A DNA stretch of 64,000 nucleotides, taken from an uncultured Alphaproteobacteria bacterium (GTDB taxonomy: Bacteria; Pseudomonadota; Alphaproteobacteria; UBA3830; CAYLKK01). The notes beneath the pieces were generated by a model. That model ran no database searches and was not told the origin of the DNA. It saw nothing but the letters and a program-made list of their open reading frames with translations. A program made the position numbers and the translations under genes. The DNA is taken from assembly GCA_964412505.1 (NCBI GenBank), contig CAYPOM010000005.1:14411-78410 (forward strand). The letters are read 5' to 3'. Shown here piece after piece: positions 141 through 59,554 of the stretch (its first letter is position 1; each line of letters opens with the position of its first letter).

Positions 141-168
141 AAAAAACGCCTTCGTATTATGAAGGCGT
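141..168 (-). terminator. Rho-independent terminator downstream of the LRR gene
   Basis: On the minus strand an 8-bp stem (ACGCCTTC / GAAGGCGT, 7-nt loop) is followed directly by TTTTTT. It lies 28 nt after the stop of the 196..3060 ORF. Confidence 0.7.
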
Positions 169-195: not shown

Positions 196-3060
196 TTATT
201 TATTAGAATTAAGATTTAGATGCCTTACTTTCTTCAGTTCGTCCTGAATTTGTTTTGTTGGATTGTAATCATGTGTAATATTTACTGTTTGCATTTCTCC
301 ATTTTCCCTCACAAACTTTATTGTTGATAATTTTGGACAACCACTAAAGCATTCATCTCCAATTTCTTCTAATGTACCAGGAAGAGTTATACTCTCTAGA
401 GAGACACATTTTTGGAAACTTCCTTCCGCAAGTTTTGTCACACTATTTGGAATAACTATTTCCTTTAGAAAATTGCAGTAATAGAAACACTGTCGTTCTA
501 TTTCTGTAATTTGTCCTGTAATAATTATCTTTTTTAGTGATTTACATTCCCAAAAACACTCACATCCAATTTTTTCCAAGCTACTAGGAAGTATTAGCGA
601 TTCTAATGATTCATACCCACGGAAACAACCATCTCCAAGCTCAGCAATTCTTACGTTATACTCTTTTTCAAACTTAACTAGATCTATGCTCTGAATATTG
701 TGCTTGTAATATCCACCTTTATCATGAATTATTGTCATAATTCCTTTCGGAACTAATTCTTCTCCATTCTTGTTTAAGAATTCAGCGAAGCTATACTTCG
801 CCAACACCACCTTCTTGAATTCAATATTTTTTTCTGGATTTTCTTTTCTTATCTTAAGAGCTTCACTAAAAAAATTGTTATACCAATCAACATATTGAAA
901 TATCCTTCCGCCTTCTAAATATTTGTCATTTTCATTATAAATATGTAACGTCTCCACATTAGGAAAGTATTTTACTGTTTTTTCATTTACAGAAATTGGA
1001 TTGTAATGGAATTTTTCCATATTTAGCCTAAAATGCTTTGAAACATTTAGCAAATTAACATGATCGGCAAGTGTATTGAAATACTTAGATGCGTAAAATA
1101 TGCAAGCATCGCTTAGTCTAGGCCTCCATTCTGTCTGTTTTATTGAATCATTATATTGACAATCTTCTGCAATAGACTCATTTCCAACATTAATTTCCTG
1201 CCAAGCGCTTGTTATGTCTTCAAACGCGCTATTGTTTCCAGATATATTATTCAAGCTTTCTGTAGGACAATCTATTGCTTGTTTGTCGTTTTCCTCTTTA
1301 TGTAATTTATCTATTTCACACTTAATTTTATATGCTTTCCTCTCAACATTTTTAACATTAACTTGTTTTATATCTCCATCAGACTTCATTATATTAACAA
1401 ATTGCAATTTTGTACACCCAGAAAAACAACAATTTCTAATCTTAGTAACTCCGTTAGGAAGAGTTATAGATTTTAATGAAGAACATCCCTCAAAACACCA
1501 AAGTCCAATATTAGTAACTTCGTTAGGAAGAGTTATAGATTTTAATGAAGAACATCCACGAAAACACCAAATTCCAATATTAGTAACTCCGGGAGGAAGA
1601 GTTATAGATGTTAATGAAAAACATTCACTAAAACAGCTGTCTCCAAGTTCTTTTAAAGTACTAGGGATATTTATAGATGTTAATGAATGACAATCGCTAA
1701 AACAGGAGGTTCCAATCTTAGTAACTCCGTTATGAATAGTTATAGATTTTAATGAATAACATCCATGAAAACACCAATCTCCAAGTCCTTTTAAAGTACT
1801 AGGGATATTTATAGATGTTAATGAATGACATCCACCAAAACAGCCGTACCCAATCTTAGTAACTTCTGTAGGAAGAGTTATAGATGTTAATGAAAAACAT
1901 TCACTAAAACAGCTGTCTCCAATCTCAGTAATCTTTACGCCAGACTCTTTTACAAACTTAACTAGATCTATACTCTTAATCTTCTCTTTTATATATCCAG
2001 CATTCACATCTGCTAATGTGATAATTTCTTTTTTAACTAACTCATTACCTTCTGTTTTTAATAAATGTTTGAAACCATCTTCATCAAAAGCAACCTTTTT
2101 AAATTCAATATTTTTGTTATTAGATCTTTTACTAAATTCCACAGGGTTATACCAATCAACATACAGTTGTATTCTTTCGCCTTCTAAATATTCATCATCT
2201 TTACTATAGACAGGCAATGTCTCTATATTTGTAAAAAATTCTACTGTTTTCGTATTTACAGAAACAGGATTGTAATGGGATTTTTCCATATTTCCCCTAA
2301 AACGCTTTGAAACGAACGTTAAATTGATATGATCATCAAGTGTATTGAAATACTTAGGTGCGTAAAATATGCAAGCATCGCTTAGTCTAGGTCTCAATCC
2401 AATCTGTTTTATTAACTCTATAGTTTCGTCATCTACAATCTTTTTTCCAGAGATCTTATTCAAGTTTTCTATAGCATGTTTTATTACCATGGCACAATTT
2501 TTATCTTGAATATTTTCTTTATATGTATGAACGACCTCCCTTAATAAGTCACCGTATCTATATACTCCTTTAGTTTTTACGTATACGGTTCCATCATTAA
2601 AAGAATATTGAATTCCAGATAGCGAAACATTCTCAAATATCTGATTGTCATTTATAATACCTAGAAGATAGGATGAGCTCGATATTAGCTTATTGATGTT
2701 GCCAGAAAGTGGCGGATCGCATAGGATGTGATTACTTTTGCCTGTTTTCCCCGCTTCTGAATTAAATAAAAATGCAGAAGCTTCTAAATGAAACAAATAT
2801 GACATCGAATCATCCAATAGCCAATATTCTTTAATTTTGCGTTCATTTGAAATGTTAATTAGACTTAAAGGAATGTACATATACTCAGAATATATACCTT
2901 TATATATAGATTTACTATCAGGTAGTACATCATAATGTACATTTTCATGAGGGGACCAAATCATCTGAATATTTGCCATCGCAAGCTCATACTTCATTCC
3001 TTCTGCGCTATAAAACATCCCCAGAGCGACTATACTAGTCGCCAATAACCTATTCTTCAT
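196..3060 (-). CDS. Secreted BspA/TpLRR-type leucine-rich repeat protein with two tandem (non-LRR domain + LRR block) modules
   Basis: 954-aa ORF with a hydrophobic signal-like N-terminus. It has two blocks of ~23-aa Cys-containing LRRs (IGDSCFSECFSLTSITLP, IGYGCFGGCHSLTSINIP, LGDGCFRGYESLESLILP). Each block is preceded by a duplicated ~110-aa module (RPRLSDACIFYA.KYFNTL.DH.NL..VSK.FR.NMEK.HYNP). Confidence 0.85.
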   Translation of the reverse strand: MKNRLLATSIVALGMFYSAEGMKYELAMANIQMIWSPHENVHYDVLPDSKSIYKGIYSEYMYIPLSLINISNERKIKEYWLLDDSMSYLFHLEASAFLFNSEAGKTGKSNHILCDPPLSGNINKLISSSSYLLGIINDNQIFENVSLSGIQYSFNDGTVYVKTKGVYRYGDLLREVVHTYKENIQDKNCAMVIKHAIENLNKISGKKIVDDETIELIKQIGLRPRLSDACIFYAPKYFNTLDDHINLTFVSKRFRGNMEKSHYNPVSVNTKTVEFFTNIETLPVYSKDDEYLEGERIQLYVDWYNPVEFSKRSNNKNIEFKKVAFDEDGFKHLLKTEGNELVKKEIITLADVNAGYIKEKIKSIDLVKFVKESGVKITEIGDSCFSECFSLTSITLPTEVTKIGYGCFGGCHSLTSINIPSTLKGLGDWCFHGCYSLKSITIHNGVTKIGTSCFSDCHSLTSINIPSTLKELGDSCFSECFSLTSITLPPGVTNIGIWCFRGCSSLKSITLPNEVTNIGLWCFEGCSSLKSITLPNGVTKIRNCCFSGCTKLQFVNIMKSDGDIKQVNVKNVERKAYKIKCEIDKLHKEENDKQAIDCPTESLNNISGNNSAFEDITSAWQEINVGNESIAEDCQYNDSIKQTEWRPRLSDACIFYASKYFNTLADHVNLLNVSKHFRLNMEKFHYNPISVNEKTVKYFPNVETLHIYNENDKYLEGGRIFQYVDWYNNFFSEALKIRKENPEKNIEFKKVVLAKYSFAEFLNKNGEELVPKGIMTIIHDKGGYYKHNIQSIDLVKFEKEYNVRIAELGDGCFRGYESLESLILPSSLEKIGCECFWECKSLKKIIITGQITEIERQCFYYCNFLKEIVIPNSVTKLAEGSFQKCVSLESITLPGTLEEIGDECFSGCPKLSTIKFVRENGEMQTVNITHDYNPTKQIQDELKKVRHLNLNSNK
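1417..1932. repeat. Intragenic tandem array of about seven 69-bp units (23-aa LRR units) with a 276-bp higher-order repeat
   Basis: The AGAGTTATAGATGTTAATGAAAAACATTCACTAAAACAGCTGTCTCCAA stretch occurs identically starting near 1601 and 1877, which is 4 x 69 bp apart. TTTTAAAGTACTAGGGATATTTATAGATGTTAATGAATGACA occurs twice, near 1650 and 1788. Boundaries are approximate. Confidence 0.8.
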
Positions 3061-3179
3061 TTTTTGCCAATCGCTTAACTCTAGGTAAATTGTATATTAA
3101 CTTATACGATGAAGCAATAGAAAATAATAGAAAAAGTATATAGAAAATTTAAAAATAAAATATTAAAACAAATTGTGAC
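2452..3179. repeat. Left arm of a ~0.7-kb inverted duplication (5-prime third of the LRR gene plus its upstream region)
   Basis: Its reverse complement matches 5475..6140. The encoded N-terminal ~203 aa are roughly 78% identical by eye, and the upstream TCACAATTTG.TTTAATA segment is also shared. Boundaries are approximate. Confidence 0.75.
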
Positions 3180-3361
3180 AAAATAAATAAAGTTCTGTTT
3201 TTTTATATACTTATATTGTAGATATGTATTTTTATATATATTCTACAATAAATATATTCACATATTTCATATGTTACAAAATATCACAATGATAATCACT
3301 GCCTCAATATCCTTAACCTTATACATCTTTACTTGAGAAACAAGCTATTTTTAAGTATAAT

Positions 3362-4666
3362 TTGAAAGCAGATTGGGAGTACTTTGTATTGGATAGATTG
3401 TTTTTTATTTTTGCTTTTGCATTTTGTTTTTTTAACACAGAATTAGCTTGCAAAAAATGTGATTCAAATGTCTGGATTGAAGCGAAAATTGACGACGAAG
3501 CCATCACAAATCTAGATGTAGAAAGAACTTTAGACACCTTGTTGTTTTTTTCGCAAATAAACATCACACCAGAGGATAAAGAGTTTTTAAAGCGGGCGAT
3601 CCTATCGTCTATGATCCAAGAGTACATTAAATACATATACGCTAAAAGACAATTAAGTCAGTATAATAATGAATTCGTTTCCAATAAAGATGTAAATGAT
3701 GAATTTGTAGCGCTGGCGGCTTCATATGGAATGACGGCAAAAGAGCTTATTGACATTTTAAAATCAAAAGGAATCGACGTTAGTTCAATAATGTCACAAA
3801 TTCGTAGACAACTAACGTGGACAGCATACAATAACGCAAAATATGGAAATTTAGTTGCTCCATCTGAAAGTGAAGCTATAAATTATAGAAAAAAGTTATC
3901 TAAAGAATATGGAAAACGAGCATACAGAGTGGAAAGATTATTCTTTCCAAAAATATCGTTTTCCGGCAGTTCTGAAAAAACAAAAAAATTTGCAAGTAAG
4001 ATCGATACCCTTTTAAAAGCTGGAATACCTTTCCATTCCGTATCTAACTTATTTTCTGGACTCACTGTATCCAATTCTTCATGTGACGGAGATTTCATAT
4101 CGGTTGGTCAATTGCCAATCAAACAAGAAAATGAAGCATTAAAAACAATGCAACAAGGTAGCTCTAAAATAATCGAGTCTGAGTTAGGCGTTTCAATTAT
4201 TCGAGTTAGTGCTATTAGAAAAGCATCAAGCGAAGTCCAGAAAACTGTCAGTTGGCGAAATGTCATTGTTCCAGTAGATGTGAATAATACCTCTGAATTA
4301 GAAAGACAGTTTGTTAAGTTATCTGAAGCGGTAAAGAATATCAAAAAAGCAAAAGATTTCATTTCATACGCGAGAAAGTTAAAGTATTCTATTTCAGAAA
4401 AAAACGAGAGTATAGAATCAGATCTGCCTAACGAACTAAAGGATATTATTAAGAATATAAAACCTGACGGAGTTTCATCGCCGATAGTAGTACCTGAAGG
4501 GATTTTAATAATATGTGTTTTAGAAAAAGGACAGTTTCAACTAAGCATTCCAAGTATAGATGAGTGTAAAATCAAAATTGCAAATGACAAAATTGATGTA
4601 TGTTCAGAAAAAGAATATAAAGATGCAAAGAAATCTGTATTTGTAGAACTAACAAAACATAAGTAA
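3362..4666 (+). CDS. SurA-like periplasmic chaperone with a parvulin (PpiC-type) peptidyl-prolyl isomerase domain
   Basis: There is a hydrophobic N-terminus and a SurA-N-like segment (IEAKIDDEAITNLDVER). A parvulin-like core follows (VERLFFPK...KIDTLLKAGIPFHSVSNLFSG...DGDFISVGQLP...GVSIIRV). The TTG start is uncertain. Confidence 0.6.
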   Translation: MKADWEYFVLDRLFFIFAFAFCFFNTELACKKCDSNVWIEAKIDDEAITNLDVERTLDTLLFFSQINITPEDKEFLKRAILSSMIQEYIKYIYAKRQLSQYNNEFVSNKDVNDEFVALAASYGMTAKELIDILKSKGIDVSSIMSQIRRQLTWTAYNNAKYGNLVAPSESEAINYRKKLSKEYGKRAYRVERLFFPKISFSGSSEKTKKFASKIDTLLKAGIPFHSVSNLFSGLTVSNSSCDGDFISVGQLPIKQENEALKTMQQGSSKIIESELGVSIIRVSAIRKASSEVQKTVSWRNVIVPVDVNNTSELERQFVKLSEAVKNIKKAKDFISYARKLKYSISEKNESIESDLPNELKDIIKNIKPDGVSSPIVVPEGILIICVLEKGQFQLSIPSIDECKIKIANDKIDVCSEKEYKDAKKSVFVELTKHK

Positions 4667-4680
4667 ATTTGGCAAGATAG

Positions 4681-5385
4681 ATGGAAATTGCAGATTATGG
4701 TATAATTGTTTCCTCAGAATCGTCATGTGAAAATGGTTATGTTCTGGTTTTATTTTCTCAAAATTATGGCAAAATATCTGGTTATTTCAAAAGAACAGAC
4801 TACACTATCCCACAAATAGGAGATCTTTGCTATTTTCGAATACAAAAACGGCTTAGCTCTCAACTTGGACAAATTCATATTGAATTGATTAAATCGACCA
4901 ATCATGCGTTTAGATCAGCGAATAAAACAAGATTGCTTACAATAAAATCGATTTGCGAAATAATCAACATGTATATTTACTGTGAAGATAAGTACGAAGA
5001 CCTTTATTTAGAGACAGTAAACTGCATAGAGAACATATGCGACTTAAAAAGATATGCGTTATGGGAATTAATTGTATTGCAAAACTTAGGATACGGTCTT
5101 GATCTTGCTAAATGTTGCATAACTAGCCAAACAGATGGGCTTACATATATTTCTCCAAAAACAGGGAAAGCTGTAGTTCAAAAAATAGGAGAGAGATATA
5201 AAGATAAGCTATTTATAATTCCTCATTTTTGGTTAAACGAATCTAACACAGTTATAAAAGATATTATAGAGTCCTTAAAAATAACAGGATATTTTTTAGG
5301 TAAATTAAACGAACATATAGGTTTTAATAAGCCTCTTATTTTTAGATCAATGCTATTGGATTGTGTCGAAAGATCGCAAATGTAA
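4681..5385 (+). CDS. recO: DNA repair protein RecO
   Basis: 234 aa with an OB-fold-like N-terminus. It has a RecO-type C-terminal pattern (LQNLGYGLDLAKCCITSQTDGLTYISPKTGKAV). Confidence 0.7.
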   Translation: MEIADYGIIVSSESSCENGYVLVLFSQNYGKISGYFKRTDYTIPQIGDLCYFRIQKRLSSQLGQIHIELIKSTNHAFRSANKTRLLTIKSICEIINMYIYCEDKYEDLYLETVNCIENICDLKRYALWELIVLQNLGYGLDLAKCCITSQTDGLTYISPKTGKAVVQKIGERYKDKLFIIPHFWLNESNTVIKDIIESLKITGYFLGKLNEHIGFNKPLIFRSMLLDCVERSQM

Positions 5386-5474
5386 CATAAATAGTCGTAA
5401 TAAACCATGATTTAGCTTATCTTAGAAACAGAACTTTGCAGTAATAATACTAATTATGATTAAAATCTAGCTTA

Positions 5475-6140
5475 TCACAATTTGCTTTAATAATGTTATT
5501 TTATTTACTTTTTCTATATTTATGGGATCAAAATGACAAAGAGTAAGTTGTTAGTAACTGGTGTAGTTGTTTTTAGAATGTTTTATAGTGCCGAATGTAT
5601 GAAGTATGGTCTTGCAGGTGCGAATGTTCAGATGATTCGGTCCCATCATAAAAATGTACATTATGATGTACTACCTGATAGTAAATCTATATGTAAAGGT
5701 ATATATTCTGAGTATATGTACATTCCTTTAAGTCTAATTAACATTTCAAATGAACGCAAAATTCAAGAATATTGGCTATTGGATGATTCTGTGTCATATT
5801 TATTTCATTTAGAAGCTTCAGCATTTTTACTTAATTCAGAAGTAGAAAAAGCCTACAAAAGAAATCATATCCTATGCGATCTGCCACTTTCTGGCAATGT
5901 TAATAAGCTAATATCAAGGTCGGCCTATCTTCTAGGAATTATAAATGATAGCCAGGCATTTTGGAATGTTTCGATATCTGGGCTTCAATATGCTTTTAGT
6001 GATGGAACTGTATACGTAAAAACCAAAGGAGTATATAGATATGGCGACTTATTAAGAGAGCTCGTTCATACATATAAAGAAAATATTCAAGATGTAAATT
6101 ATAGAAAAGTAATGTATCATGCTATAGAAAACTTGAATAA
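5475..6140. repeat. Right arm of the inverted duplication (paralogue of the LRR gene 5-prime end plus upstream region)
   Basis: See the left arm at 2452..3179. It is in inverted orientation and flanks the surA-like and recO genes. Confidence 0.75.
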
Positions 6141-6254
6141 GGGGGGGAGATTAATTGGCTTGGAAATGGCTGTTTCCGTTGGTATACATCATTAGAATCA
6201 CTAATACTTCCTAATAGTTTGAAAAAAATCAACTTATTTACGAACAAAAGATAG
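5533..6254 (+). pseudogene. Decayed paralogue of the BspA-type LRR gene (N-terminal domain joined out of frame to a single LRR remnant)
   Basis: The 220-aa ORF 5533..6195 matches aa 1-203 of the 954-aa protein. After a G7 tract (6131-6137) the -1 frame reads EINWLGNGCFRWYTSLESLILPNSLKKI, which matches RIAELGDGCFRGYESLESLILPSSLEKI of the long gene. That frame stops at 6252-6254, so about 1.7 kb of internal sequence is missing. Confidence 0.7.
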
Positions 6255-6389
6255 CAAAGGCTAAATTATTCATGGAAATAACAAAATATCTCAACATACT
6301 TAAACTTATACAGACATAAATTTATAATATACTTGCTTTTCAGAAGAAGATGCAACATAATTGTAAATGTATCATGCGAAGAGATTAGA

Positions 6390-7316
6390 TTGATAGACTT
6401 GATAATAGACTGTGACCCAGGCCAAGATGATGCAATAGCAATTTTGTTAGCATTAGCAAATAAAAATTTTAATATCTTAGGAATAACAACAGTAGCTGGA
6501 AATGTAACAGCACAACAGACATTTCTAAATGCAAAAAAAATGTGCATATGCGCAAATAGATCTGAAGTACAAGTTTACAAAGGTGCGGAGAAACCTATAA
6601 AAAAAGAACTAAAAACCGCAGAACATATTCATGGAGAAAATGGCCTTTCTTGTGATATATTAGTTGAGGATGATTCTGAATTGAAACCTGATGCGATTCA
6701 ATTTATTATAGAAACGTTAGAAAAATCAGATAGAAAGGTTACCATAGCAGCTACAGCGGCACTAACAAATTTAGCTTTAGCATTTAATAAAGCCCCACAT
6801 ATAAAAGAAAAAATTGACCAAATTGTTATTATGGGAGGTTCGACAGAAGGAGGAAATATTACAAAATATGCCGAATTTAATTTTTTTACAGATCCACATG
6901 CCGCAGATGTAGTATTTAAAAGTGGTGTTAGAATTGTCATGATTGGACTTAACATTACACATCAAGTCGTGTTTTCAGAGGCAGAAATAACTAAAGTAAA
7001 GCATATTAATAACTTTGTTACAAGCCAAGCTGTAAAAATATTAGAAGATCTGCTAATCACAAACAGAGACGTTTATGGACATAAAGGAGGGATTGTACAT
7101 GATGCGTGTGTAATTGCATATTTATCGGATCCCAATATTTTTTCTTCGAAAGAAGCATATGTTTGTATAGAAACAAAAAACCAAGAAAATATTGGCCAAT
7201 CTTATGTGGATTATTCTTCAAATATCACCAACTCTTTAGTATGTATTGGTGTAGATATAGAAAGAATATTTAGCTTGTTCTTAAAATTATTTTCGAATTA
7301 CAACGCTAACAATTAA
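6390..7316 (+). CDS. Inosine-uridine preferring nucleoside hydrolase family protein
   Basis: The N-terminal IIDCDPGQDDAIAILLAL motif is the classic DxDxxxDD nucleoside hydrolase signature, and the length is typical. The ORF opens at 6333 (TTG), and the TTG at 6390 places the motif at the usual distance from the start. The start is uncertain. Confidence 0.8.
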   Translation: MIDLIIDCDPGQDDAIAILLALANKNFNILGITTVAGNVTAQQTFLNAKKMCICANRSEVQVYKGAEKPIKKELKTAEHIHGENGLSCDILVEDDSELKPDAIQFIIETLEKSDRKVTIAATAALTNLALAFNKAPHIKEKIDQIVIMGGSTEGGNITKYAEFNFFTDPHAADVVFKSGVRIVMIGLNITHQVVFSEAEITKVKHINNFVTSQAVKILEDLLITNRDVYGHKGGIVHDACVIAYLSDPNIFSSKEAYVCIETKNQENIGQSYVDYSSNITNSLVCIGVDIERIFSLFLKLFSNYNANN

Positions 7317-7408
7317 TATCATAATATAAAACAAAAACTTTAAACTTTTCATGAAACTAATACTTAACTTAATAGTTATAAAATTTAGTTCTAATTCGGA
7401 GAAAAGTT

Positions 7409-7975
7409 TTGAATAATAGAAATCGTGGTGGTGTAATGATCGAGTCTGTCGTAGTAATCCCACTAGTGTTTTTGCTAATTTTAGGATTATTCGAAGTCAA
7501 TAGAATTCGATCTACACAAAGAATTTTAGACTCACTCTCAATCAATGTAGCTACAGAAATAGCGGCATATCCTATCGACAAGGATAGAATAAATAGCATA
7601 ATCAAAAGACATCTAAACTCATCACACATGAATATAATAATAGGTTTTCAATCTACAGATGACCTAAAATACTATATCGACTTCTACACAAATAATTATA
7701 TTGATAATTATTCTACTCCTAAATATGAAAACGACAGACCGAATGGCGATATTCAAAAAGATGATGGCAAAGATGTTTTAGATAATGAAGAGAACAATTC
7801 GAACAGCGAAAAAAATGACAACACGAATGAATACAATATAGAAAGAGGAAACGATATCGTCGTTACATTCTGCTATAAATTTAAATTCCTGTGTGCATTA
7901 ACCTGTGCAGCATTCACAGGATCGACAAATAAACCATTATATTTATATAGTAGAAGCAGGACAAAACGATTGTAG
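7409..7975 (+). CDS. TadE-like (Flp pilus pseudopilin-like) protein with an Asn/Asp-rich C-terminal region
   Basis: The N-terminus GGVMIESVVVIPLVFLLILGLFEVNRI fits the TadE-like G..a.E.a...P.......g..e pattern. It has a TTG start, and no other tad genes were seen. Confidence 0.45.
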   Translation: MNNRNRGGVMIESVVVIPLVFLLILGLFEVNRIRSTQRILDSLSINVATEIAAYPIDKDRINSIIKRHLNSSHMNIIIGFQSTDDLKYYIDFYTNNYIDNYSTPKYENDRPNGDIQKDDGKDVLDNEENNSNSEKNDNTNEYNIERGNDIVVTFCYKFKFLCALTCAAFTGSTNKPLYLYSRSRTKRL

Positions 7976-7987
7976 AATAACTACTAT

Positions 7988-8470
7988 TTACTGTTTTTCA
8001 TACTCATCGAGTCTTTTCTTTAAATCAGCAAGCGCATCTCGGATCTCACATGACAATTTCGAATTTTCTCTCAGCAGCCTTGTATTTTCGCGTATCAATC
8101 TATTATTCTCCGAAATCAAATCATTATTTTGTTTCGAAACATTCACATTATTCTCTACATTTTTTTTGAGCTTATTGGTCGTATTTCGAACAGGTTTATT
8201 CTTTGCGTTATTTATTGAACTATACTGTTTCACTTCATATAACCTATCTTCAGCTAAGTATGTTTTACAAGTTTTAGGAGCGCTATCAGATACACGTTTA
8301 CCACTAAAAGAATTACTTACACTATTCTTTGCATTTCTATGTTTTGAATCGCTTTTCTTAGAATCTATAGACCGATAAGAATCATTATCTAAATCATAAA
8401 AAAATACTTTTCCATGACAACTAAAAAGTATACATACAACTACCAAACAAGAAAAATATTTTTTTTTCAT
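7988..8470 (-). CDS. Putative lipoprotein with a C-terminal coiled coil
   Basis: It has a signal peptide with a lipobox-like LFSC (MKKKYFSCLVVVCILFSCHG) and heptad-like ENNRLIRENTRLLRENSKL. Its start overlaps the upstream gene's stop by 1 nt (TAATG). Confidence 0.5.
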   Translation of the reverse strand: MKKKYFSCLVVVCILFSCHGKVFFYDLDNDSYRSIDSKKSDSKHRNAKNSVSNSFSGKRVSDSAPKTCKTYLAEDRLYEVKQYSSINNAKNKPVRNTTNKLKKNVENNVNVSKQNNDLISENNRLIRENTRLLRENSKLSCEIRDALADLKKRLDEYEKQ

Positions 8471-8940: not shown

Positions 8941-9881
8941 ATCATGTGTTTAATTTATTTAACATGCATTTCCAACTTACTATGTATAAAATATCATTAC
9001 AATTGTAAAAATAATCCACAGCATTTTATCGTGTTCATATTTTTTTTATCAACAATAACGAAATATTACTTGCTTTCAGAAAATATCGCTAAATCGAACA
9101 GATACAGACTGCATAAAAAATAAGCAAATCGTACAAAAGTACTGGAAACACAACGACAAACACTCTTTGACCATATATTTTCCACAAACTTTTCCACAGC
9201 AATTGTGGAACACACTCAAAGCTAGTGCTTTTGAGCTACTTTAATAGCTCTTGTTATTTAGCTTAATGATCATGTGTTGATAATTTATTTATACTGAGCC
9301 CCGGATTTAAGGCCACGGTTATCGATCGTTTTTTGTGTGATATTATTGAGTTGATTAGAGGTTTAAGTATGGGAATGATGTGAAAAAACATATACAACAG
9401 TTTGTTTATTTTTATAATTTTAAGAGATTACATCAAAATTTAAATTACAATACTCATAATAATGTGTATAATAAAATCGTGGATGGACACAGCTTCATCT
9501 ACGCGAAAGTTGAGAAAAAACGATCGCAAAAATAATACATAAATGGTCCGACTTCCGGGGCTCAATATAATTTAACATGCATTTCCAGCTTACTATGTAT
9601 AAAATATCATTACAATTGTATAAATAATCCACAGAACTTTATCGTGTTCATATTTTTTTTATCAACAATAACGAAATATTACTTGCTTTCAGAAAATATC
9701 GCTAAATCGAACAGATACAGACTGCATAAAAAATAAGCAAATCGTACAAAAGTACTGGAAACACAACGACAAACACTCTTTGACCATATATTTTCCACAA
9801 ACTTTTCCACAGCAATTGTGGAACACACTCAAAGCTAGTGTTTTTGTGCTTCTTTAATAGCTTTTGTTATTTCTGCTAATG
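8941..9881. repeat. Tandem duplication of a 328-bp unit (last 47 bp of dsbD plus 281 bp downstream), with the second unit interrupted by a MITE-like insert
   Basis: Unit 1 is 8941-9268 and unit 2 is 9269-9881. Both begin ATCATGTGTT..TAATTTATTTA and end ..TAATG. 8961-9268 aligns colinearly with 9574-9881 (308 bp). Confidence 0.85.
9288..9571. mobile_element. MITE-like non-autonomous element (~285 bp) with terminal inverted repeats
   Basis: The left end TACTGAGCCCCGGA (9292-9305) matches the right end TCCGGGGCTCAATA (9554-9567) as reverse complement at 13/14 positions. There is a subterminal inverted pair CGATCGTTTTTT / AAAAAACGATCG. It has no ORF and is absent from the otherwise colinear copy at 8941-9268. 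An AT-rich flank (ATTTA) is repeated on both sides. Confidence 0.65.
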
Positions 9882-14808: not shown

Positions 14809-16563
14809 ATGAATATCCATGAATCATACAATAAACTTATGAATAATTTTTCATTAATGTCATTAAACCCTCAAATTGCGCTCATATCATTTTTGAAAAT
14901 AAGTGCAGAAATGATGAAAGATCCAGATAAAATTAAAGATTCGCAAAAAGATCTAGTTAATAAGCTAATAGATCTATCAGAATATGCAACAAAAAAAATG
15001 CTTAATCAGGATACATCAAGTTTAAAAAAAGATGGAGATAAAAATTTCAAAGGAGATGAATGGGACGATTATTTCTACTTCGACATAGCTAAACAATATT
15101 ATCTAACTATATCAGAATGGATGAAAGATACCATAAATAACGTGGATATAATAGATCATGATTTAAAACTAAAGTCTAACTTTTTTCTAAATAGCTTTCT
15201 AGACGCAGTACACCCTAAAAACTTCCCGCTCTTAAATCCAGAAGTAATCAAAGAAACAATAAAAAACAATGGAGAAAATCTATATAAAGGTTTTGAAATG
15301 TTTCTTCAAGATTTACAAAACGGAATGATTACGACAAATGACAAATCGTTTTATAAAATAGGAGAAAATATAGCTACGACCCCAGGGAAAGTAATATTCA
15401 AGAATTCTCTTATAGAATTAATCCAATATGAACCATCTACCGATAAAGTATTTTCAACTCCACTTTTATTCATACCGCCATGGATCAATAAATTTTATAT
15501 TTTAGACTTATGTAAAGAAGAGTCTTTTGTTCAGTGGCTTGTAGATAAAGGTTTTACAGTTTTTATAATATCATGGGCTAACCCAGATAAAAGATATGCA
15601 GAATTTGGATTTGAAGATTACGCGATAGAAGGAGTAATCGAATCAATAAACAAAATACACGAAGTTACAAAATCAGCTGTAATAAATACTATAGGATATT
15701 GTGTAGGAGGAACATTAATTACTTCTATTCTAGGCGCACTATCAGATAAAAATTGCAAGATAAAACCAAAAGCGGAAATAAATTCTGCGACTCTTTTGAC
15801 GACCCCACTGGACTTTTCTCGACCTGGAGAATTATCTATATTCATTGATGAGTTTTATCTTAAGCTAATAGGCAATGACTTAGAACGAGACGGCTTATTA
15901 AGTGGGAAGGTAATGTATAACACGTTTAATGCATTAAAAGCAAATGACATGATTTGGAGGTATGTTGTAAACAGATATATGCTAGGGAACGCACCTACAC
16001 CGCATAGCATTCTTTTCTGGAATGCTGATACTATGAATATAACTAAAAATATGCAGTTATTTTTATCAAAATCGTTATATAGAGATAATATTATAAAGGA
16101 GAAAAAATTCTCATTTCTAGGAGCAGACGTAGATTTAAAGAATGTAAATGTACCAATTTATATGGTATCTATGCTAAAAGATCACCTAGTACCATGGAAA
16201 ACAACATATGATGGATTAAAACTATTTAAAAATGTTGTTAGATTCGTAGTAGGAGGATCTGGACACGTAGCTGGAGTAATAAATCCGCCTTGTAGAAATA
16301 AATACTCATATTGGACAAATTCTAATACAAATGAATCTGCAGAAAATTGGTTCGATAAAGCAACAAAACATAAAGGATCATGGTGGAACGATTTATTAGA
16401 ATGGTTAAAACCACTTTCCGGCACTTTAATACAAGCAAGAAAAATTAAAAATTATATGTATGACGCACCTGGAGTATACGTAACAAACCAGCTATCTGAA
16501 GATGATATTATTTCACCAGAGTTAATTAGGATATCTAAGAAATTAAATCAGCTTTCTAAATAA
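14809..16563 (+). CDS. phaC: Class I poly(3-hydroxyalkanoate) synthase
   Basis: 584 aa with the lipase-box-like GYCVGGT carrying the catalytic Cys. PhaC N-terminal-domain-like sequence is present (FKGDEWDD, PPWINKFYILDL). Confidence 0.8.
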   Translation: MNIHESYNKLMNNFSLMSLNPQIALISFLKISAEMMKDPDKIKDSQKDLVNKLIDLSEYATKKMLNQDTSSLKKDGDKNFKGDEWDDYFYFDIAKQYYLTISEWMKDTINNVDIIDHDLKLKSNFFLNSFLDAVHPKNFPLLNPEVIKETIKNNGENLYKGFEMFLQDLQNGMITTNDKSFYKIGENIATTPGKVIFKNSLIELIQYEPSTDKVFSTPLLFIPPWINKFYILDLCKEESFVQWLVDKGFTVFIISWANPDKRYAEFGFEDYAIEGVIESINKIHEVTKSAVINTIGYCVGGTLITSILGALSDKNCKIKPKAEINSATLLTTPLDFSRPGELSIFIDEFYLKLIGNDLERDGLLSGKVMYNTFNALKANDMIWRYVVNRYMLGNAPTPHSILFWNADTMNITKNMQLFLSKSLYRDNIIKEKKFSFLGADVDLKNVNVPIYMVSMLKDHLVPWKTTYDGLKLFKNVVRFVVGGSGHVAGVINPPCRNKYSYWTNSNTNESAENWFDKATKHKGSWWNDLLEWLKPLSGTLIQARKIKNYMYDAPGVYVTNQLSEDDIISPELIRISKKLNQLSK

Positions 16564-17749: not shown

Positions 17750-20200
17750 TCACTGATCGCCTCCATCAGTATTTGGCTTAAATGTAAACGTATCAAACAA
17801 ATTGTTATCTTTATCAGACTGATCATCATCTTTTTCTACTTGTTGTTCGCTATCTACTATACCATCTCCTATTTTGATACCGACCTTTTCGACATTTTGG
17901 ATTTCGTCTATTTCATCTCCGACAAATTCTACATTTGTGTCTGAACTTTCTGTCGATAAATCTTCTGTATTAATTTTTGCTTCTTGTTCATCAGAAATTA
18001 ACGTATCATCTGTTTGTTCGTCTACGACATTCTCCCTGCTAATTTCATCTTTATTTATACTAATATTTTCCTTTTCCATATCTTCTTCATAAACTCTTGG
18101 CAAAACCAACGTCAATATTGTCTCTAAAGGAGAAGTCATTTCGGAATATGTTCCTTGTAAGCGACTAGACATCTTATTAATTCTATCGAGACTTAATTGC
18201 ATATCGTCTTGTGAATAAATCTTATCTTCGACTTTGTGTCTAGTAATATAGAATGTAAACTTTATAAAATCTTGAGAATTTTCTTCTTCTGCTGCAGAAA
18301 ATATTATATTACTGTTTTTATTACTATCTGTTATATAGGAAAATATATCAGATAAAAGCATAATTAGTTTAACATGTGCTGTATATATATAACCTAAATC
18401 AGAATATTCTTGTATTTCTATCTTATTATTATTTTTCAAAGATAATACTCGTACCATTGTATCTATACTAAATACAATATCCGATATTCTGCAATTCGCT
18501 AAATTTGATTTTTTTATTCGACTATCAGTTTGAACAGCTGTATCATATATTTCGGCTACAGCTTTAGATAAATAGTTTGCACTATTATTTATCCTTCGTA
18601 AATCAATTTCTCTTTCATCATGGCTATACTTAGCCTCCTCTAATAATATTTCGCTATATTCACTAATTACACTTGCTGGCAACTTAAGAGCTAGACTTGT
18701 ATGTTTTAAAAACTCTATTTTTTCAGCTTCTGATATAATAGCTTTATCCATAGCAGCTTTATATTTAGATTGCTCAATTAATGCGTTATCGACTTGCTCT
18801 TTGTATGTATTAATGGTCTTTTGTGCATTTTTTTGAATAGCATCAATTCTATTACTTGTTTTTTCTTCCATTTGCTTCTTATAAGAAACGTCATAAGCTC
18901 CAATGGCCGCATAACTTACTCCATCTATTTCAACTACATATATGCTGATAGATGCCCACAAACTTGATCCATCAGTTAACTGCAGTAAAACATCATAATT
19001 CCTAATAGGTATTAAAGATGCAATTGCACTTTTAATGTAAGATACTTCTCTTTCATCAATAACAAACTTAAAAAAATCTACACCAATTAAACTATCAGTT
19101 ACTCTAAATAGATTTAAAGCTTGACTATTATTAAATGTTATAATGTAATCATCACATTTGATAAAGATAACAGGGCAAGGAGCACATCTATTAAATGCAG
19201 TCTCTCTCTTTAGTTTCGCATAGATATTTATATATCTTCGAGCTAAAACTAGTGAGATTAGCAATGTTAAAATCAATCCTACAAAAAATGCTCCATCAAT
19301 TCCTTTTAAAAGCTCTTTAGCTAACACAGTAATAGATGTACTATCTGTTGCTATTACAGACGTTAACATAGGCCCTTTTATTTTTTCATTGAGTTTTATT
19401 TTCGCTATATTTACTCTAAAAGGAATATTATCTTGCATAAAAATAACAGTTTTACCTATATGTTTATTTTTTATAACATCTTTATTGGCCAAGTGGCACC
19501 CAAGTATAACTGCTAAAGTTTTTTGTGATTGCTTACTAAAACTACCATCTAGATTTATATACCTTGAAAAAGATGGAGAGATAACGTAAAAAAACCTAGG
19601 AAATACCCCTTGATCTATTGATCTAACAAATGTATTGTATTTTTTCCAAGGCACAACAAACTTAAAGTAATATTTACTATCGCCTATTTTATGCATCACT
19701 AAATATGATATTAAAATATTAGCAGAATTTCCGTTATTTTCAGGAAATAAGTTAAATACAACATTGCCAGCTTCCGCTTGCTTAAACTCTGCATCTTTCA
19801 GCAAATCAGCATTATCGTATTTGTTTGATGTATATATTAAGGATCCATATTCATCACAAATTTTGATAGATACAATATCTTCATGCTCACCTAAAAATTT
19901 CTTCGTAATCGCTTCTATCTTCTTTAATTTAGCTATGTCACTATTACGAAACGATTTAGTGAATTGCTGTAGAAGAGAAACATCTTTTTCAATACCGACA
20001 GAAATTGTATTCGATATGTTACTATTTTCTGTGCTAATGAACGTATGCAAACAATCTTCTACACTTCTAGATGATGTATGTTCTATATAATTCACACCTG
20101 AATAAAATGGTATGAACAAACACAACCAAACTATCAGAGAAACAAACAAATAACGCGACATAACGTATTGCCCTAAGAAATAACAATACATTATACGCAA
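17750..20200 (-). CDS. Membrane sensor-like protein with a degenerate histidine-kinase core (pseudo-HK) and an acidic C-terminal tail
   Basis: Two hydrophobic segments flank a ~270-aa extracytoplasmic region, followed by a PAS-like region. The DHp-like FLKHTSLALKLPASVISEYSEILLEE has Leu where the phospho-His sits in FLxxxSHELRTPL. The CA-like region lacks the N, G1 and G2 boxes, and the last ~110 aa are rich in D/E. The start is uncertain (an alternative M lies at 20161). Confidence 0.5.
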   Translation of the reverse strand: MRIMYCYFLGQYVMSRYLFVSLIVWLCLFIPFYSGVNYIEHTSSRSVEDCLHTFISTENSNISNTISVGIEKDVSLLQQFTKSFRNSDIAKLKKIEAITKKFLGEHEDIVSIKICDEYGSLIYTSNKYDNADLLKDAEFKQAEAGNVVFNLFPENNGNSANILISYLVMHKIGDSKYYFKFVVPWKKYNTFVRSIDQGVFPRFFYVISPSFSRYINLDGSFSKQSQKTLAVILGCHLANKDVIKNKHIGKTVIFMQDNIPFRVNIAKIKLNEKIKGPMLTSVIATDSTSITVLAKELLKGIDGAFFVGLILTLLISLVLARRYINIYAKLKRETAFNRCAPCPVIFIKCDDYIITFNNSQALNLFRVTDSLIGVDFFKFVIDEREVSYIKSAIASLIPIRNYDVLLQLTDGSSLWASISIYVVEIDGVSYAAIGAYDVSYKKQMEEKTSNRIDAIQKNAQKTINTYKEQVDNALIEQSKYKAAMDKAIISEAEKIEFLKHTSLALKLPASVISEYSEILLEEAKYSHDEREIDLRRINNSANYLSKAVAEIYDTAVQTDSRIKKSNLANCRISDIVFSIDTMVRVLSLKNNNKIEIQEYSDLGYIYTAHVKLIMLLSDIFSYITDSNKNSNIIFSAAEEENSQDFIKFTFYITRHKVEDKIYSQDDMQLSLDRINKMSSRLQGTYSEMTSPLETILTLVLPRVYEEDMEKENISINKDEISRENVVDEQTDDTLISDEQEAKINTEDLSTESSDTNVEFVGDEIDEIQNVEKVGIKIGDGIVDSEQQVEKDDDQSDKDNNLFDTFTFKPNTDGGDQ

Positions 20201-36017: not shown

Positions 36018-36051
36018 AATCGTACGTGTTGTGTGTACGATTTTATTTTTT
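36018..36051 (+). promoter_or_regulatory. Terminator-like stem-loop plus U-run in the tlc 5-prime leader (possible attenuator)
   Basis: AATCGTAC (36018-36025) pairs with GTACGATT (36035-36042) across a 9-nt loop. TTATTTTTT follows, then GGAGA (36052-36056) and the ATG at 36063. Confidence 0.4.
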
Positions 36052-36062
36052 GGAGAACTCAA

Positions 36063-59552: not shown

Positions 59553-59554
59553 TA

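What the first reader, a model, noticed from the sequence alone, without database searches (positions are those of the whole stretch)
196..3060. Secreted 954-aa LRR protein built from two tandem units that resemble whole Entamoeba-type BspA proteins
Seen in the sequence: a hydrophobic export-like N-terminus, an unknown ~200-aa domain, then two tandem units. Each unit is a ~110-aa non-LRR module followed by a block of 23-residue Cys-rich LRRs. The two modules are aa ~222-330 (RPRLSDACIFYAPKYFNTLDDHINLTFVSKRFRGNMEKSHYNPVSVNTKTVEFFTNIETLPVYSKDDEYLEGERIQLYVDWYNP) and aa ~640-745 (RPRLSDACIFYASKYFNTLADHVNLLNVSKHFRLNMEKFHYNPISVNEKTVKYFPNVETLHIYNENDKYLEGGRIFQYVDWYNN). Established: this LRR type is the BspA/TpLRR class, expanded in Entamoeba and Trichomonas and present in some bacteria. 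From memory only, the pattern SKYF..D.INL...K.F....E.FHFNPIPL....K.FP..ETLH.Y is the conserved N-terminal module of the Entamoeba BspA-like family. On that reading, the bacterial gene carries two complete eukaryote-style units behind a bacterial signal. Inference: gene exchange between an amoebozoan-type host and its symbiont, and use of the product as a surface or secreted effector. This is my best candidate for something new in this window.
Basis: partly seen in the sequence, partly recalled or inferred. Interest (0 to 1): 0.75.

Follow-up and report, generated by a model that had tools for sequence, protein, structure and literature searches.

The report
Symbiont exported protein copied from Entamoeba
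An uncultured intracellular alphaproteobacterium encodes an export-signal-bearing protein made of two tandem copies of a module-plus-leucine-rich-repeat unit otherwise known almost only from Entamoeba-type amoebae, most likely a gene taken from the host lineage and reused as a host-mimicking surface or secreted protein.

Summary
Window 196..3060 (-) is an intact 954-aa ORF: a Sec-like signal peptide, a roughly 190-aa orphan domain, then two tandem units that are 53% identical (E 1e-92). Each unit is a roughly 155-aa module followed by 23-residue BspA/TpLRR repeats (Pfam LRR_5, 2.2e-90) and a helical C-cap.

A profile of the module finds 928 protein clusters. Every named one is an Entamoeba 'BspA family' protein (E. 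histolytica EHI_194290 and EHI_015120, E. nuttalli, E. invadens, E. marina). There the module sits at the N-terminus, directly before LRR_5.

The closest relatives (59-69% identity) are unnamed gut-metagenome proteins on 23-25% GC eukaryotic contigs.

In bacteria the module is rare. One genuine locus turned up among 185,579 prokaryotic species, plus a few metagenomic contigs. All those proteins carry signal peptides.

The window organism has an NTP/NDP translocase, so it probably lives inside cells.

Best reading: eukaryote-to-symbiont gene transfer, followed by gain of an export signal, duplication of the unit within the gene, and use as a host-mimicking LRR protein.

Not shown: where the protein ends up, what it binds, which host carries the bacterium, or a well-supported tree. 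An F-box-like reading of the module's start is only weakly supported.

The parts
196..3060 (-). Complete coding sequence of the 954-aa protein (stop codon at 196-198)
   Evidence: ORF list. An independent assembly confirms the 5' end. dN/dS between the two internal units is 0.37-0.50.
2995..3060 (-). Residues 1-22: Sec-type signal peptide (MKNR / LLATSIVALGMFY / SAEG|M)
   Evidence: Hydrophobicity heuristic. Nearly the same leader occurs on paralogues that have different N-domains: P0026, P0042, P0080 and the 5533 copy. SignalP was not available.
2416..2994 (-). Residues 23-215: lineage-specific N-terminal domain of unknown fold
   Evidence: No Pfam family and no PDB sequence match. Only two hits in 5.8 billion proteins: the window's own paralogue and P0197.
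1936..2397 (-). Residues 222-375: module 1, homologous to the N-terminal module of the Entamoeba BspA family
   Evidence: Six-frame HMM scan, E 2.1e-52. 67% identical to module 2 over the core.
1393..1935 (-). Residues 376-556: LRR block 1, one partial plus seven full 23-residue BspA/TpLRR repeats, rich in Cys
   Evidence: Pfam LRR_5. TRF period of 69 nt with 7.4 copies. Repeat parsing. phmmer against 4fs7, E 1.1e-59.
1132..1392 (-). Residues 557-643: C-cap of unit 1 plus a charged, low-complexity linker
   Evidence: The start of this stretch resembles the C-terminal tail that follows block 2 (read directly from the sequence). No homologues outside the window in a local BLAST.
661..1131 (-). 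Residues 644-800: module 2
   Evidence: Six-frame HMM scan, E 8.8e-60. AlphaFold model pLDDT 91.8: short N-terminal helices, then irregular beta/alpha turns.
316..660 (-). Residues 801-915: LRR block 2, one partial plus four full 23-residue repeats
   Evidence: Pfam LRR_5. Repeat parsing. Regular strands in the model.
196..315 (-). Residues 916-954 plus the stop codon: C-terminal cap (strand plus long helix), conserved in the bacterial paralogues
   Evidence: Model helix at residues 299-318. 46% identical to the tail of P0026 and 36% to that of P0113.
146..168 (-). Terminator-like hairpin followed by a T run, directly after the gene
   Evidence: Consensus scan.
5533..6230 (+). Decayed paralogue: signal peptide and N-domain (79% identical) joined to a 27-codon LRR remnant in another frame, with the modules and repeats deleted
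   Evidence: tblastn. ORF list. An intact-looking relative, P0197, continues from this N-domain into a module.
36033..37529 (+). Context: NTP/NDP exchange transporter (Tlc-type), a marker of an intracellular lifestyle
   Evidence: NCBIfam TIGR00769, 502 bits against a cut-off of 387.

Best explanation
The gene encodes an exported, host-mimicking LRR protein of an intracellular alphaproteobacterium. Its two repeat units most likely descend from a gene of an Entamoeba-lineage eukaryote.

**Shown**
- The module that precedes each LRR block belongs to the family that forms the N-terminus of Entamoeba BspA-family proteins.
- That family is large in low-GC eukaryotic sequence and very rare in bacteria.
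- Every bacterial copy carries a signal peptide that the eukaryotic copies lack.
- The two units in this gene are each other's closest relatives, which points to duplication inside the bacterium.
- The host genome carries an NTP/NDP translocase.

**Inferred**
- A module-plus-LRR unit was taken from the host lineage, without its N-terminal and TLDc domains.
- It was fused behind a bacterial Sec leader and a lineage-specific N-domain.
- It spread as a small paralogous family and was duplicated in tandem in this gene.
- The product is exported through Sec and then exposed on or released from the cell.
- Its two concave LRR faces then bind host partners that normally bind the host's own module-LRR proteins, so it acts as a bivalent competitor or scaffold.
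For: **Homology to Entamoeba proteins**
- Single-sequence hit to E. invadens, E 1.8e-12.
- Profile search: 928 clusters, 516 of them at E <= 1e-10.
- Every named member is an Entamoeba BspA-family protein.
- Every module-bearing protein scanned carries LRR_5, downstream of the module.

**The closest relatives are eukaryotic**
- Their contigs are 23-25% GC.
- The proteins carry TLDc domains.
- One contig also carries Nop52.

**The module is rare in bacteria**
- Two loci among 185,579 species, only one of them convincingly bacterial.
- Bacterial-type members were recognised by signal peptides (P0026, P0042, P0072, P0080, P0107, P0113, P0189).
- Two of these lie on contigs whose neighbouring genes are typical bacterial genes (L008, L012).

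**Bacterial and eukaryotic subfamilies interleave**
- The window modules, P0026 and P0042 are 57-69% identical to the TLDc-type eukaryotic group.
- They are only 32-43% identical to named Entamoeba species.
- P0113 and P0107 are nearer the classical Entamoeba type.

**Duplication and selection**
- The two modules pair in 83% of NJ bootstraps.
- dN/dS between the units is 0.37-0.50.

**Structure and lifestyle**
- The AlphaFold model of unit 2 (pLDDT 91.8) shows one continuous capped solenoid. It matches solved BspA/TpLRR-type proteins.
- Intracellular lifestyle: Tlc transporter.
- Alphaproteobacterial markers: NtrY/NtrX and alpha-type ProRS.
Against: - No well-supported tree shows the bacterial sequences nested inside the eukaryotic ones. 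Bootstrap support beyond the intragenic pair is at most 42%.
- The LRR blocks could be of bacterial origin. They score 205 bits against Bacteroides ovatus 4fs7, compared with 140-169 bits against Entamoeba-type and paralogous repeats, although the two figures come from different scoring methods.
- A Sec leader only takes the protein to the periplasm. No dedicated secretion system or host-translocation signal was linked to it.
- The gene's GC and GC3 are like those of neighbouring housekeeping genes, so composition gives no sign of foreign origin.
- The host organism and the sample type are unknown.
- The genome scan used two short peptide patterns and would miss divergent bacterial copies.
Confidence: 0.7

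Rival explanations
1. Reverse direction. The module-plus-LRR unit arose in bacteria of this kind and passed into the Entamoeba ancestor, where it expanded. The bacterial genes would then be the originals.
For: - Published work holds that the LRR_5 part of Entamoeba BspA proteins came from bacteria (PMC8136499 and PMC5349171, read).
- The window's LRR block scores very high against a Bacteroides protein.
- The tree is poorly resolved.
Against: - The module occurs in E. histolytica, E. nuttalli, E. invadens and E. marina, and in hundreds of divergent clusters. In bacteria it occurs in only a handful of symbiont contigs.
- Bacterial modules are up to 69% identical to one shallow eukaryotic subfamily and only 31-48% identical to the named Entamoeba species. 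Different bacterial members are nearest to different eukaryotic subfamilies. That pattern fits recent transfers into bacteria.
Confidence: 0.1
2. An ordinary bacterial BspA-type surface adhesin, inherited vertically. On this reading the resemblance of the module to Entamoeba proteins is convergence or a widely shared LRR cap.
For: - LRR_5 proteins with signal peptides are common bacterial surface proteins.
- The fold search returns bacterial cell-surface LRR_5 structures first.
Against: - The module matches no Pfam family and no PDB sequence.
- Its profile hits reach E 1e-26 for named Entamoeba proteins and 1e-58 for eukaryote-type metagenome proteins.
- Identity of 59-69% over about 100 residues is not convergence.
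- The module is essentially absent from 185,579 prokaryotic species.
Confidence: 0.04
3. Assembly chimera or contamination: eukaryotic sequence joined by error to a bacterial contig.
For: - The gene is repetitive.
- Independent short-read assemblies break inside it. L004 ends 145 nt into the gene.
Against: - The 5' end, including the signal peptide, is contiguous with surA-like and recO in an independent assembly at 100% identity.
- The ORF is uninterrupted, starts with a bacterial leader shared by paralogues, and ends at a terminator.
- A decayed paralogue lies 2.5 kb away.
- Related genes sit on other bacterial contigs.
Confidence: 0.02
4. Same origin, different mechanism. The start of the module is a divergent F-box-like element. 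The protein would then act like Ralstonia GALA or Legionella AnkB effectors, recruiting host Skp1/SCF ubiquitin ligase to targets bound by its LRRs.
For: - The consensus LDNYCIFIASRYFxxIDDHINLxxVSKRFxxN reads like the H1-H3 pattern of an F-box.
- hhalign of the first 48 module columns against an F-box alignment aligns the expected register (idDhINL..VsKrf against dl..l..VcKrW). P is 0.003, and none of 100 column shuffles reaches the score.
- Pfam confirmed all 12 members of that F-box alignment as F-box domains.
- The model shows two helices plus two further short helical turns ahead of the solenoid.
- F-box LRR proteins appear among the weak fold hits: TIR1, COI1, FBXL17 and viral F-box proteins.
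Against: - None of 40 modules hits a Pfam F-box family, even at E <= 1.
- hhalign with the whole module gives a probability of 1.2%, and 10.6% with the N-part. Only 17 columns align.
- The conserved Leu-Pro and Trp of F-boxes are missing.
- The fold hits to F-box proteins are no better than hits to unrelated LRR proteins.
Confidence: 0.14

Closest known systems
Entamoeba BspA-family leucine-rich repeat proteins (for example E. histolytica EHI_015120 and EHI_194290, E. invadens EIN_475980)
   Same: - Same N-terminal module (profile E about 1e-23 to 1e-26), directly followed by Pfam LRR_5 repeats of 23 residues.
- One bacterial unit is about the size of a whole 330-430-aa Entamoeba protein.
- The LRR blocks are 36-43% identical.
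   Different: - The window protein is bacterial and has a Sec signal peptide and an orphan N-domain.
- It carries two units in tandem.
- Entamoeba members have one module at their very N-terminus. The Entamoeba BspA-family protein examined in PMC5349171 (EHI_016490) has no conventional signal peptide.
- Module identity to named species is only 32-43%.
Unnamed eukaryotic subfamily from gut metagenomes: about 200-aa N-domain, then module, LRR_5 and TLDc (P0010, P0012, P0019, P0041; contigs L001, L007, L009, L011)
   Same: These are the closest non-bacterial relatives of the module: 57-63% identity to the window modules, and up to 69% to the paralogue P0026. The module is followed by LRR_5.
   Different: - They have an unrelated N-domain and a C-terminal TLDc domain, and no signal peptide.
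- Their LRRs are more irregular.
- Their contigs are 23-25% GC and include eukaryotic genes such as Nop52.
- The organism is unidentified.
Bacterial BspA/TpLRR-type surface proteins (Tannerella forsythia BspA, Treponema pallidum TpLRR 6mlx, Bacteroides and Faecalibacterium LRR_5 proteins 4fs7 and 4gt6)
   Same: Same repeat type and fold, with export signals. Their general role as surface or secreted protein-binding modules is established knowledge.
   Different: None of the solved proteins contains the module: the profile search of PDB sequences gave no hit at E <= 10.
Eukaryote-like repeat effectors of amoeba-associated and intracellular bacteria (Legionella LRR/F-box/ankyrin proteins, Ralstonia GALA F-box-LRR effectors, repeat proteins of 'Candidatus Amoebophilus')
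   Same: The concept is the same: a host-type protein-interaction domain acquired by an intracellular bacterium and expanded into a small family (general knowledge; reviewed in PMC7542358 and PMC11323580, listed).
   Different: - No sequence homology to those effectors was found.
- Those effectors typically use type III or type IV secretion signals rather than a Sec leader.
- The F-box character was tested here and is inconclusive.

Membership tests
BspA/TpLRR-type LRR (Pfam PF13306, LRR_5) | Match to the family profile above the curated cut-off | tested here: met
   299.6 bits against a cut-off of 27.7, in three stretches.
BspA/TpLRR-type LRR (Pfam PF13306, LRR_5) | Repeat period of about 23 residues | tested here: met
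   TRF period of 69 nt with 7.4 copies at 1423..1931. Eleven full 23-residue repeats were parsed.
BspA/TpLRR-type LRR (Pfam PF13306, LRR_5) | Fold like solved family members | tested here: met
   Model pLDDT 91.8. Foldseek top hits are 4gt6, 6mlx (TpLRR), 3sb4, 4fs7 and 4h09. phmmer against 4fs7 gives E 1.1e-59.
Entamoeba BspA-family proteins (module plus LRR_5) | Conserved module (..ASKYF..IDDFINLE.V.K.F.GNMEKFHFNPI.L...T.K.FPN.ET.H.Y..) homologous to the family's N-terminus | tested here: met
   E. invadens hit at E 1.8e-12 from a single sequence. Profile hits at 1e-23 to 1e-26 to proteins named as E. histolytica, E. nuttalli and E. invadens BspA family. E. marina also hit.
Entamoeba BspA-family proteins (module plus LRR_5) | Module immediately followed by LRR_5 repeats | tested here: met
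   True of both window units and of all relatives scanned.
Entamoeba BspA-family proteins (module plus LRR_5) | Encoded in a eukaryotic genome, with the module at the extreme N-terminus and no signal peptide | tested here: not met
   The gene lies in a bacterial contig between housekeeping genes. It has a signal peptide and a 190-aa domain ahead of the first module. It is therefore a bacterial derivative of the family, not a member in the organismal sense.
Sec-exported bacterial protein | N-terminal signal peptide with a positive n-region, a hydrophobic h-region and small residues at -3 and -1 | tested here: met
   MKNR / LLATSIVALGMFY / S-A-E-G|M, with no lipobox Cys and no further hydrophobic segment. 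This is a heuristic only; SignalP was not available.
Eukaryote-derived effector of an intracellular bacterium | Narrow distribution in bacteria and wide distribution in a eukaryotic lineage | tested here: met
Eukaryote-derived effector of an intracellular bacterium | Bacterial sequences nested within eukaryotic diversity in a supported tree | tested here: inconclusive
   Nearest-neighbour identities interleave. NJ bootstraps beyond the intragenic pair are at most 42%.
Eukaryote-derived effector of an intracellular bacterium | Delivery to the host cell and binding of a host target | not testable with these tools
   Needs localisation and interaction experiments.
F-box/LRR proteins (FBXL type; GALA-type bacterial effectors) | Match to an F-box profile | tested here: not met
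   None of 40 modules hits any Pfam F-box family at E <= 1.
F-box/LRR proteins (FBXL type; GALA-type bacterial effectors) | Profile-profile or structural similarity of the N-terminal helices to an F-box | tested here: inconclusive
   hhalign probability is 1.2% for the whole module. For the N-part it is 10.6%, with P 0.003 and no column shuffle out of 100 reaching the score. Foldseek hits to TIR1, COI1 and FBXL17 have E 5e-3 to 3e-2, no better than other LRR proteins.
F-box/LRR proteins (FBXL type; GALA-type bacterial effectors) | Binding to Skp1 | not testable with these tools
   Complex prediction and experiments were not available.

The most novel reading that the evidence does not exclude
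The module is a divergent F-box-like adaptor domain. If so, the large Entamoeba 'BspA family', usually treated as surface adhesins, would mostly be cytosolic substrate receptors of an SCF-type ubiquitin ligase. The symbiont would have captured two of them to redirect host ubiquitination. The gene would also mark a so far undescribed intracellular alphaproteobacterial symbiont lineage of Entamoeba-like amoebae, allowing the host of a MAG to be predicted from a single gene family.
Probability: 0.15. Interest if true: 0.85.

Novelty: new variant of a known kind. Interest (0 to 1): 0.6.

Why it matters
**Gene transfer.** Transfer from a eukaryote into a bacterium is much rarer than the reverse. 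This case involves a family that is a hallmark of one parasite genus: 111 paralogues in E. histolytica and 1,320 in E. moshkovskii according to PMC8136499.

**Symbiont biology.**
- The gene links an uncultured intracellular alphaproteobacterium to an Entamoeba-lineage host. No paper describing such a symbiont turned up in the library searches.
- It gives a concrete candidate for how the bacterium engages its host.

**Entamoeba biology.**
- It draws attention to a conserved, unnamed module (no Pfam family) at the start of the Entamoeba BspA family, whose function is unknown.
- The bacterium kept exactly this module plus the repeats and dropped the other domains. That suggests the pair is the functional unit.

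Tried and rejected
**Structure**
- AlphaFold on the module alone with an 11-sequence alignment gave pLDDT 39.8 and was discarded. The second job, on the whole unit with 147 sequences, worked.
- The viral library returned only generic LRR proteins and weak F-box/FNIP hits.

**Identifying the source**
- Exact look-ups of the 954-aa protein, its 220-aa paralogue and P0026 found no gene on record.
- LepA and the Tlc transporter were not in the collection as exact sequences.
- The window's own locus seems not to be searchable, so the record name was not recovered directly.
- LigA and the 220-aa paralogue are each recorded on an NCBI contig of 92,904 bases. The related locus L006 comes from the MAG 'uncultured Alphaproteobacteria bacterium SRP315200_co2_804'.
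- Paper searches for the run, study, sample and assembly accessions found nothing.

**Module identity**
- The F-box idea had no Pfam support and only weak profile support. I kept it as a minority hypothesis.
- PDB sequence searches with the module profile and the N-domain gave nothing useful.

**Origin of the repeats**
- I tried to use the LRR blocks to infer origin. They are about equally similar to Bacteroides and Entamoeba-type repeats.
- Base composition shows no foreign signature.

**Rejected readings.** I considered and rejected chimeric assembly and an ordinary vertically inherited adhesin; the reasons are given under the rival explanations.


Full report
**1. What is in the sequence**

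Window 196..3060 on the minus strand is an uninterrupted 954-codon ORF with an ATG start. A GC-rich hairpin with a T run lies at 168..146. An AT-rich 300-nt spacer separates the gene from the divergently transcribed surA-like gene.

An independent short-read assembly (L004) covers window 2916..5405 at 100% identity. It therefore joins the first 48 codons of the gene to the surA-like gene and recO. The gene is thus part of the bacterial chromosome and not an assembly artefact.

The window averages about 31% GC. It carries:
- alpha-type ProRS, LepA, LigA and NtrY/NtrX;
- a class I PHA synthase;
- a Tlc-type NTP/NDP exchange transporter.

I read this as an alphaproteobacterium that lives inside cells. 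The related locus L006 comes from a MAG labelled 'uncultured Alphaproteobacteria bacterium SRP315200_co2_804'. LigA and the 220-aa paralogue of the window are each recorded on an NCBI contig of 92,904 bases.

**2. Anatomy of the protein**

| Residues | Feature | Evidence |
|---|---|---|
| 1-22 | Sec-type signal peptide (MKNR, LLATSIVALGMFY, SAEG then M); no other hydrophobic segment | |
| 23-215 | Orphan domain: no Pfam family, no PDB sequence; only the window's own paralogue and one metagenomic protein in 5.8 billion sequences | |
| about 222-575 | Unit 1 | |
| about 644-954 | Unit 2 | |

The two units align at 53% identity over 269 residues, E 1e-92.

Each unit has three parts:
- a module of about 155 residues;
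- a block of 23-residue Cys-rich repeats (7.5 in unit 1, 4.5 in unit 2; Pfam LRR_5 at 299.6 bits; TRF period of 69 nt);
- a short C-terminal cap.

AlphaFold2 on unit 2 with a 147-sequence alignment gave pLDDT 91.8 and pTM 0.81. The model shows two helices plus two further short helical turns, then irregular beta/alpha turns, then the regular solenoid, and finally a long C-terminal helix. The module is therefore best described as an elaborate N-terminal cap continuous with the LRR, not a separate globular domain.

The fold search returns solved BspA/TpLRR-type proteins first: 4gt6, 6mlx, 3sb4, 4fs7 and 4h09.

**3. What the module is**

The module matches no Pfam family and no PDB sequence.

- A single-sequence search found eight short metagenomic proteins and E. 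invadens EIN_346330, the latter at E 1.8e-12.
- A profile search of 1.84 billion cluster representatives found 928 proteins at E <= 1e-3, 516 at E <= 1e-10 and 70 at E <= 1e-30.
- The cluster look-ups covered 27 of these representatives. Five carried names, and all five are Entamoeba 'leucine rich repeat protein, BspA family': EHI_194290 and EHI_015120 of E. histolytica, E. nuttalli orthologues, and EIN_430840, EIN_475980 and EIN_508690 of E. invadens.
- The second word-index search added E. invadens and E. marina.

In these proteins the module begins within the first 11 residues and LRR_5 follows.

**4. The closest relatives**

The best-scoring relatives are unnamed ENA metagenome proteins with this architecture: N-domain of about 200 aa, then the module, LRR_5 and TLDc.

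Their contigs look eukaryotic:
- GC is 23-25%.
- They read through in the standard genetic code.
- One carries a 1,312-aa low-complexity protein.
- Another carries Nop52 beside two tandem family members.

One such contig is filed under a goat-colon 'Bacterium' MAG and is probably misbinned. I take these proteins to come from unidentified Entamoeba-like gut eukaryotes.

Over the 102-column core:
- the window modules are 57-63% identical to this group;
- they are 32-43% identical to named Entamoeba species;
- the paralogue P0026 reaches 69% identity to this group.

**5. Distribution in bacteria**

A pattern-plus-tblastn scan of one genome for each of 185,579 prokaryotic species returned two loci:
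- L006, a 765-aa paralogue in the alphaproteobacterial MAG;
- the misbinned 24% GC contig.

Among the roughly 190 family members whose sequences I held, the bacterial-type ones stand out by their signal peptides: P0026, P0042, P0072, P0080, P0107, P0113 and P0189.

Two of these were placed on contigs whose neighbouring genes are typical bacterial genes:
- L008, 22 kb, with DnaN, SecD/F, ParA and GidB;
- L012, 11.8 kb, with RNase PH, ComEC and a hibernation factor.

W954, the 5533 copy, P0026, P0042 and P0080 share nearly the same leader (K/R-rich start, then LLATSIVA(L/F)G.F, then A(E/D)GM). Their N-domains differ. This pattern suggests a family that diversifies by domain shuffling behind a fixed export signal.

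**6. Direction of transfer and history**

Distribution favours transfer from eukaryote to bacterium. The family has hundreds of divergent clusters across several Entamoeba species and only a handful of symbiont proteins.

Interleaving points the same way. The window group is nearest the TLDc-type subfamily, whereas P0113 and P0107 are nearest classical-type members. This hints at more than one transfer.

The NJ tree of 166 modules over 102 columns is weak:
- the two window modules pair in 83% of bootstraps;
- adding P0026 lowers support to 42%;
- no larger grouping is supported.

I therefore treat the direction as probable, not shown.

The LRR blocks do not help. Block 1 scores 205 bits against Bacteroides ovatus 4fs7 and 140-169 bits against Entamoeba-type and paralogous repeats. 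Composition does not help either: GC is 31% and GC3 23%, like neighbouring genes.

dN/dS between the two units is 0.37-0.50, so both units are under constraint.

A decayed paralogue at 5533..6230 keeps the leader and N-domain (79% identity). It has lost everything up to a 27-codon LRR remnant. P0197, from another metagenome, shows the intact arrangement of that N-domain followed by a module.

**7. Mechanism**

*Shown:* an export signal, two capped LRR solenoids of host-family type, purifying selection, and an intracellular lifestyle.

*Inferred:*
- The protein crosses the inner membrane by Sec and is then exposed on or released from the cell.
- Its two concave faces then bind host factors that normally interact with the host's own module-LRR proteins.
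- It would act as a competitor or a bivalent scaffold.

I put this at about 0.7 as a general reading. The target is unknown.

A more specific idea is that the first 45 residues of the module are F-box-like. I tested it as follows:
- No Pfam F-box hit for any of 40 modules.
Pfam confirmed all 12 members of that alignment as F-box domains.
- For the N-terminal 48 columns the probability is 10.6%, with P 0.003 in the expected register. None of 100 column shuffles reaches that score.
- F-box LRR proteins appear only among weak fold hits.

The test is inconclusive, and I keep the idea as a minority hypothesis.

**8. Comparison with what is known, and novelty**

- By repeat type the protein belongs to the BspA/TpLRR class.
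- By its module it is a bacterial derivative of the Entamoeba BspA family.
- In concept it resembles the eukaryote-like repeat effectors of amoeba-associated bacteria.

I found no paper describing this module in bacteria, or an intracellular alphaproteobacterium tied to Entamoeba-like hosts, in the held library. The phenomenon is a known kind. The family, the donor lineage and the architecture (leader, orphan domain, two host-type units) are new, so I call it a new variant of a known kind.

**9. Verdict**

The caveats concern tree support, the origin of the LRR blocks, host identity and localisation. Interest is 0.6.

Noticed in passing
window 5533..6230 (+): A decayed paralogue of the finding's gene. 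A 220-aa ORF holds the signal peptide and the N-domain (79% identical). It then runs out of frame into a 27-codon remnant of an LRR repeat that matches residues 805-831 of the big protein. The modules and repeats were lost in a deletion.
   Followed up: yes
window 8957..9256 and 9570..9869: Two 300-nt direct repeats (97% identical) flank a roughly 290-nt element bounded by 22-nt inverted repeats (9284-9305 and 9554-9575). On reading the sequence, the element appears to hold a short C-terminal fragment of a transposase/integrase-like ORF. It looks like an insertion-sequence remnant or a MITE with a duplicated target region.
   Followed up: partly
window 36033..37529 (+): A Tlc-type NTP/NDP exchange transporter (TIGR00769, 502 bits). 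It marks energy parasitism and an intracellular lifestyle for the window organism.
   Followed up: partly
window 14809..16563 (+): A class I-like PHA synthase (587 bits, just under the subfamily cut-off of 623) in a genome that otherwise looks like an intracellular symbiont.
   Followed up: no
window 17750..20200 (-), 33954..35225 (+), 51323..53185 (-), 58137..59570 (-), 61672..63738 (-): Five large ORFs (816, 423, 620, 477 and 688 aa). The 477-aa ORF has no Pfam match and was not scanned with NCBIfam. The other four have no NCBIfam or Pfam match apart from a sub-threshold PAS hit in the 816-aa one. They may be further lineage-specific or effector-type proteins.
   Followed up: no
L007 (JAFQOI010000007.1, 'Bacterium isolate RGIG2002', goat colon): A 2.1-kb contig at 24% GC inside a bacterial MAG. 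It encodes a eukaryote-type family member (N-domain, module, irregular LRRs) and is probably a misbinned contig of an Entamoeba-like protist.
   Followed up: partly
L011 (ERZ28654447 scaffold_9244) 3898..8084; also P0010, P0019, P0041: The eukaryotic relatives occur as tandem gene pairs next to a Nop52 gene. Many combine the module and LRR_5 with a C-terminal TLDc domain and an unassigned roughly 200-aa N-domain. I have not seen this architecture described.
   Followed up: partly
N-termini of W954, window 5533 copy, P0026, P0042 (L006) and P0080 (L012): A nearly invariant signal peptide (..K.(K/R)LL(A/I/V)T(S/G)(I/M/V)(V/I)(A/V).(G/R).F.(S/V)A(E/D)(G/C)M) heads proteins whose mature N-terminal domains are unrelated. 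It looks as if a leader cassette is reused across the family.
   Followed up: partly
window 1423..1931: The first LRR block has a higher-order period of 138 nt (two repeats) on top of the 69-nt unit. This points to recent expansion by duplication of repeat pairs.
   Followed up: no
window 7409..7975 (+): A TadE-like protein (Pfam E 2.7e-4, just below the cut-off) lies 4 kb from the gene. It may be part of a Tad/type IVb pilus system. I did not check whether other Tad genes are present.
   Followed up: no
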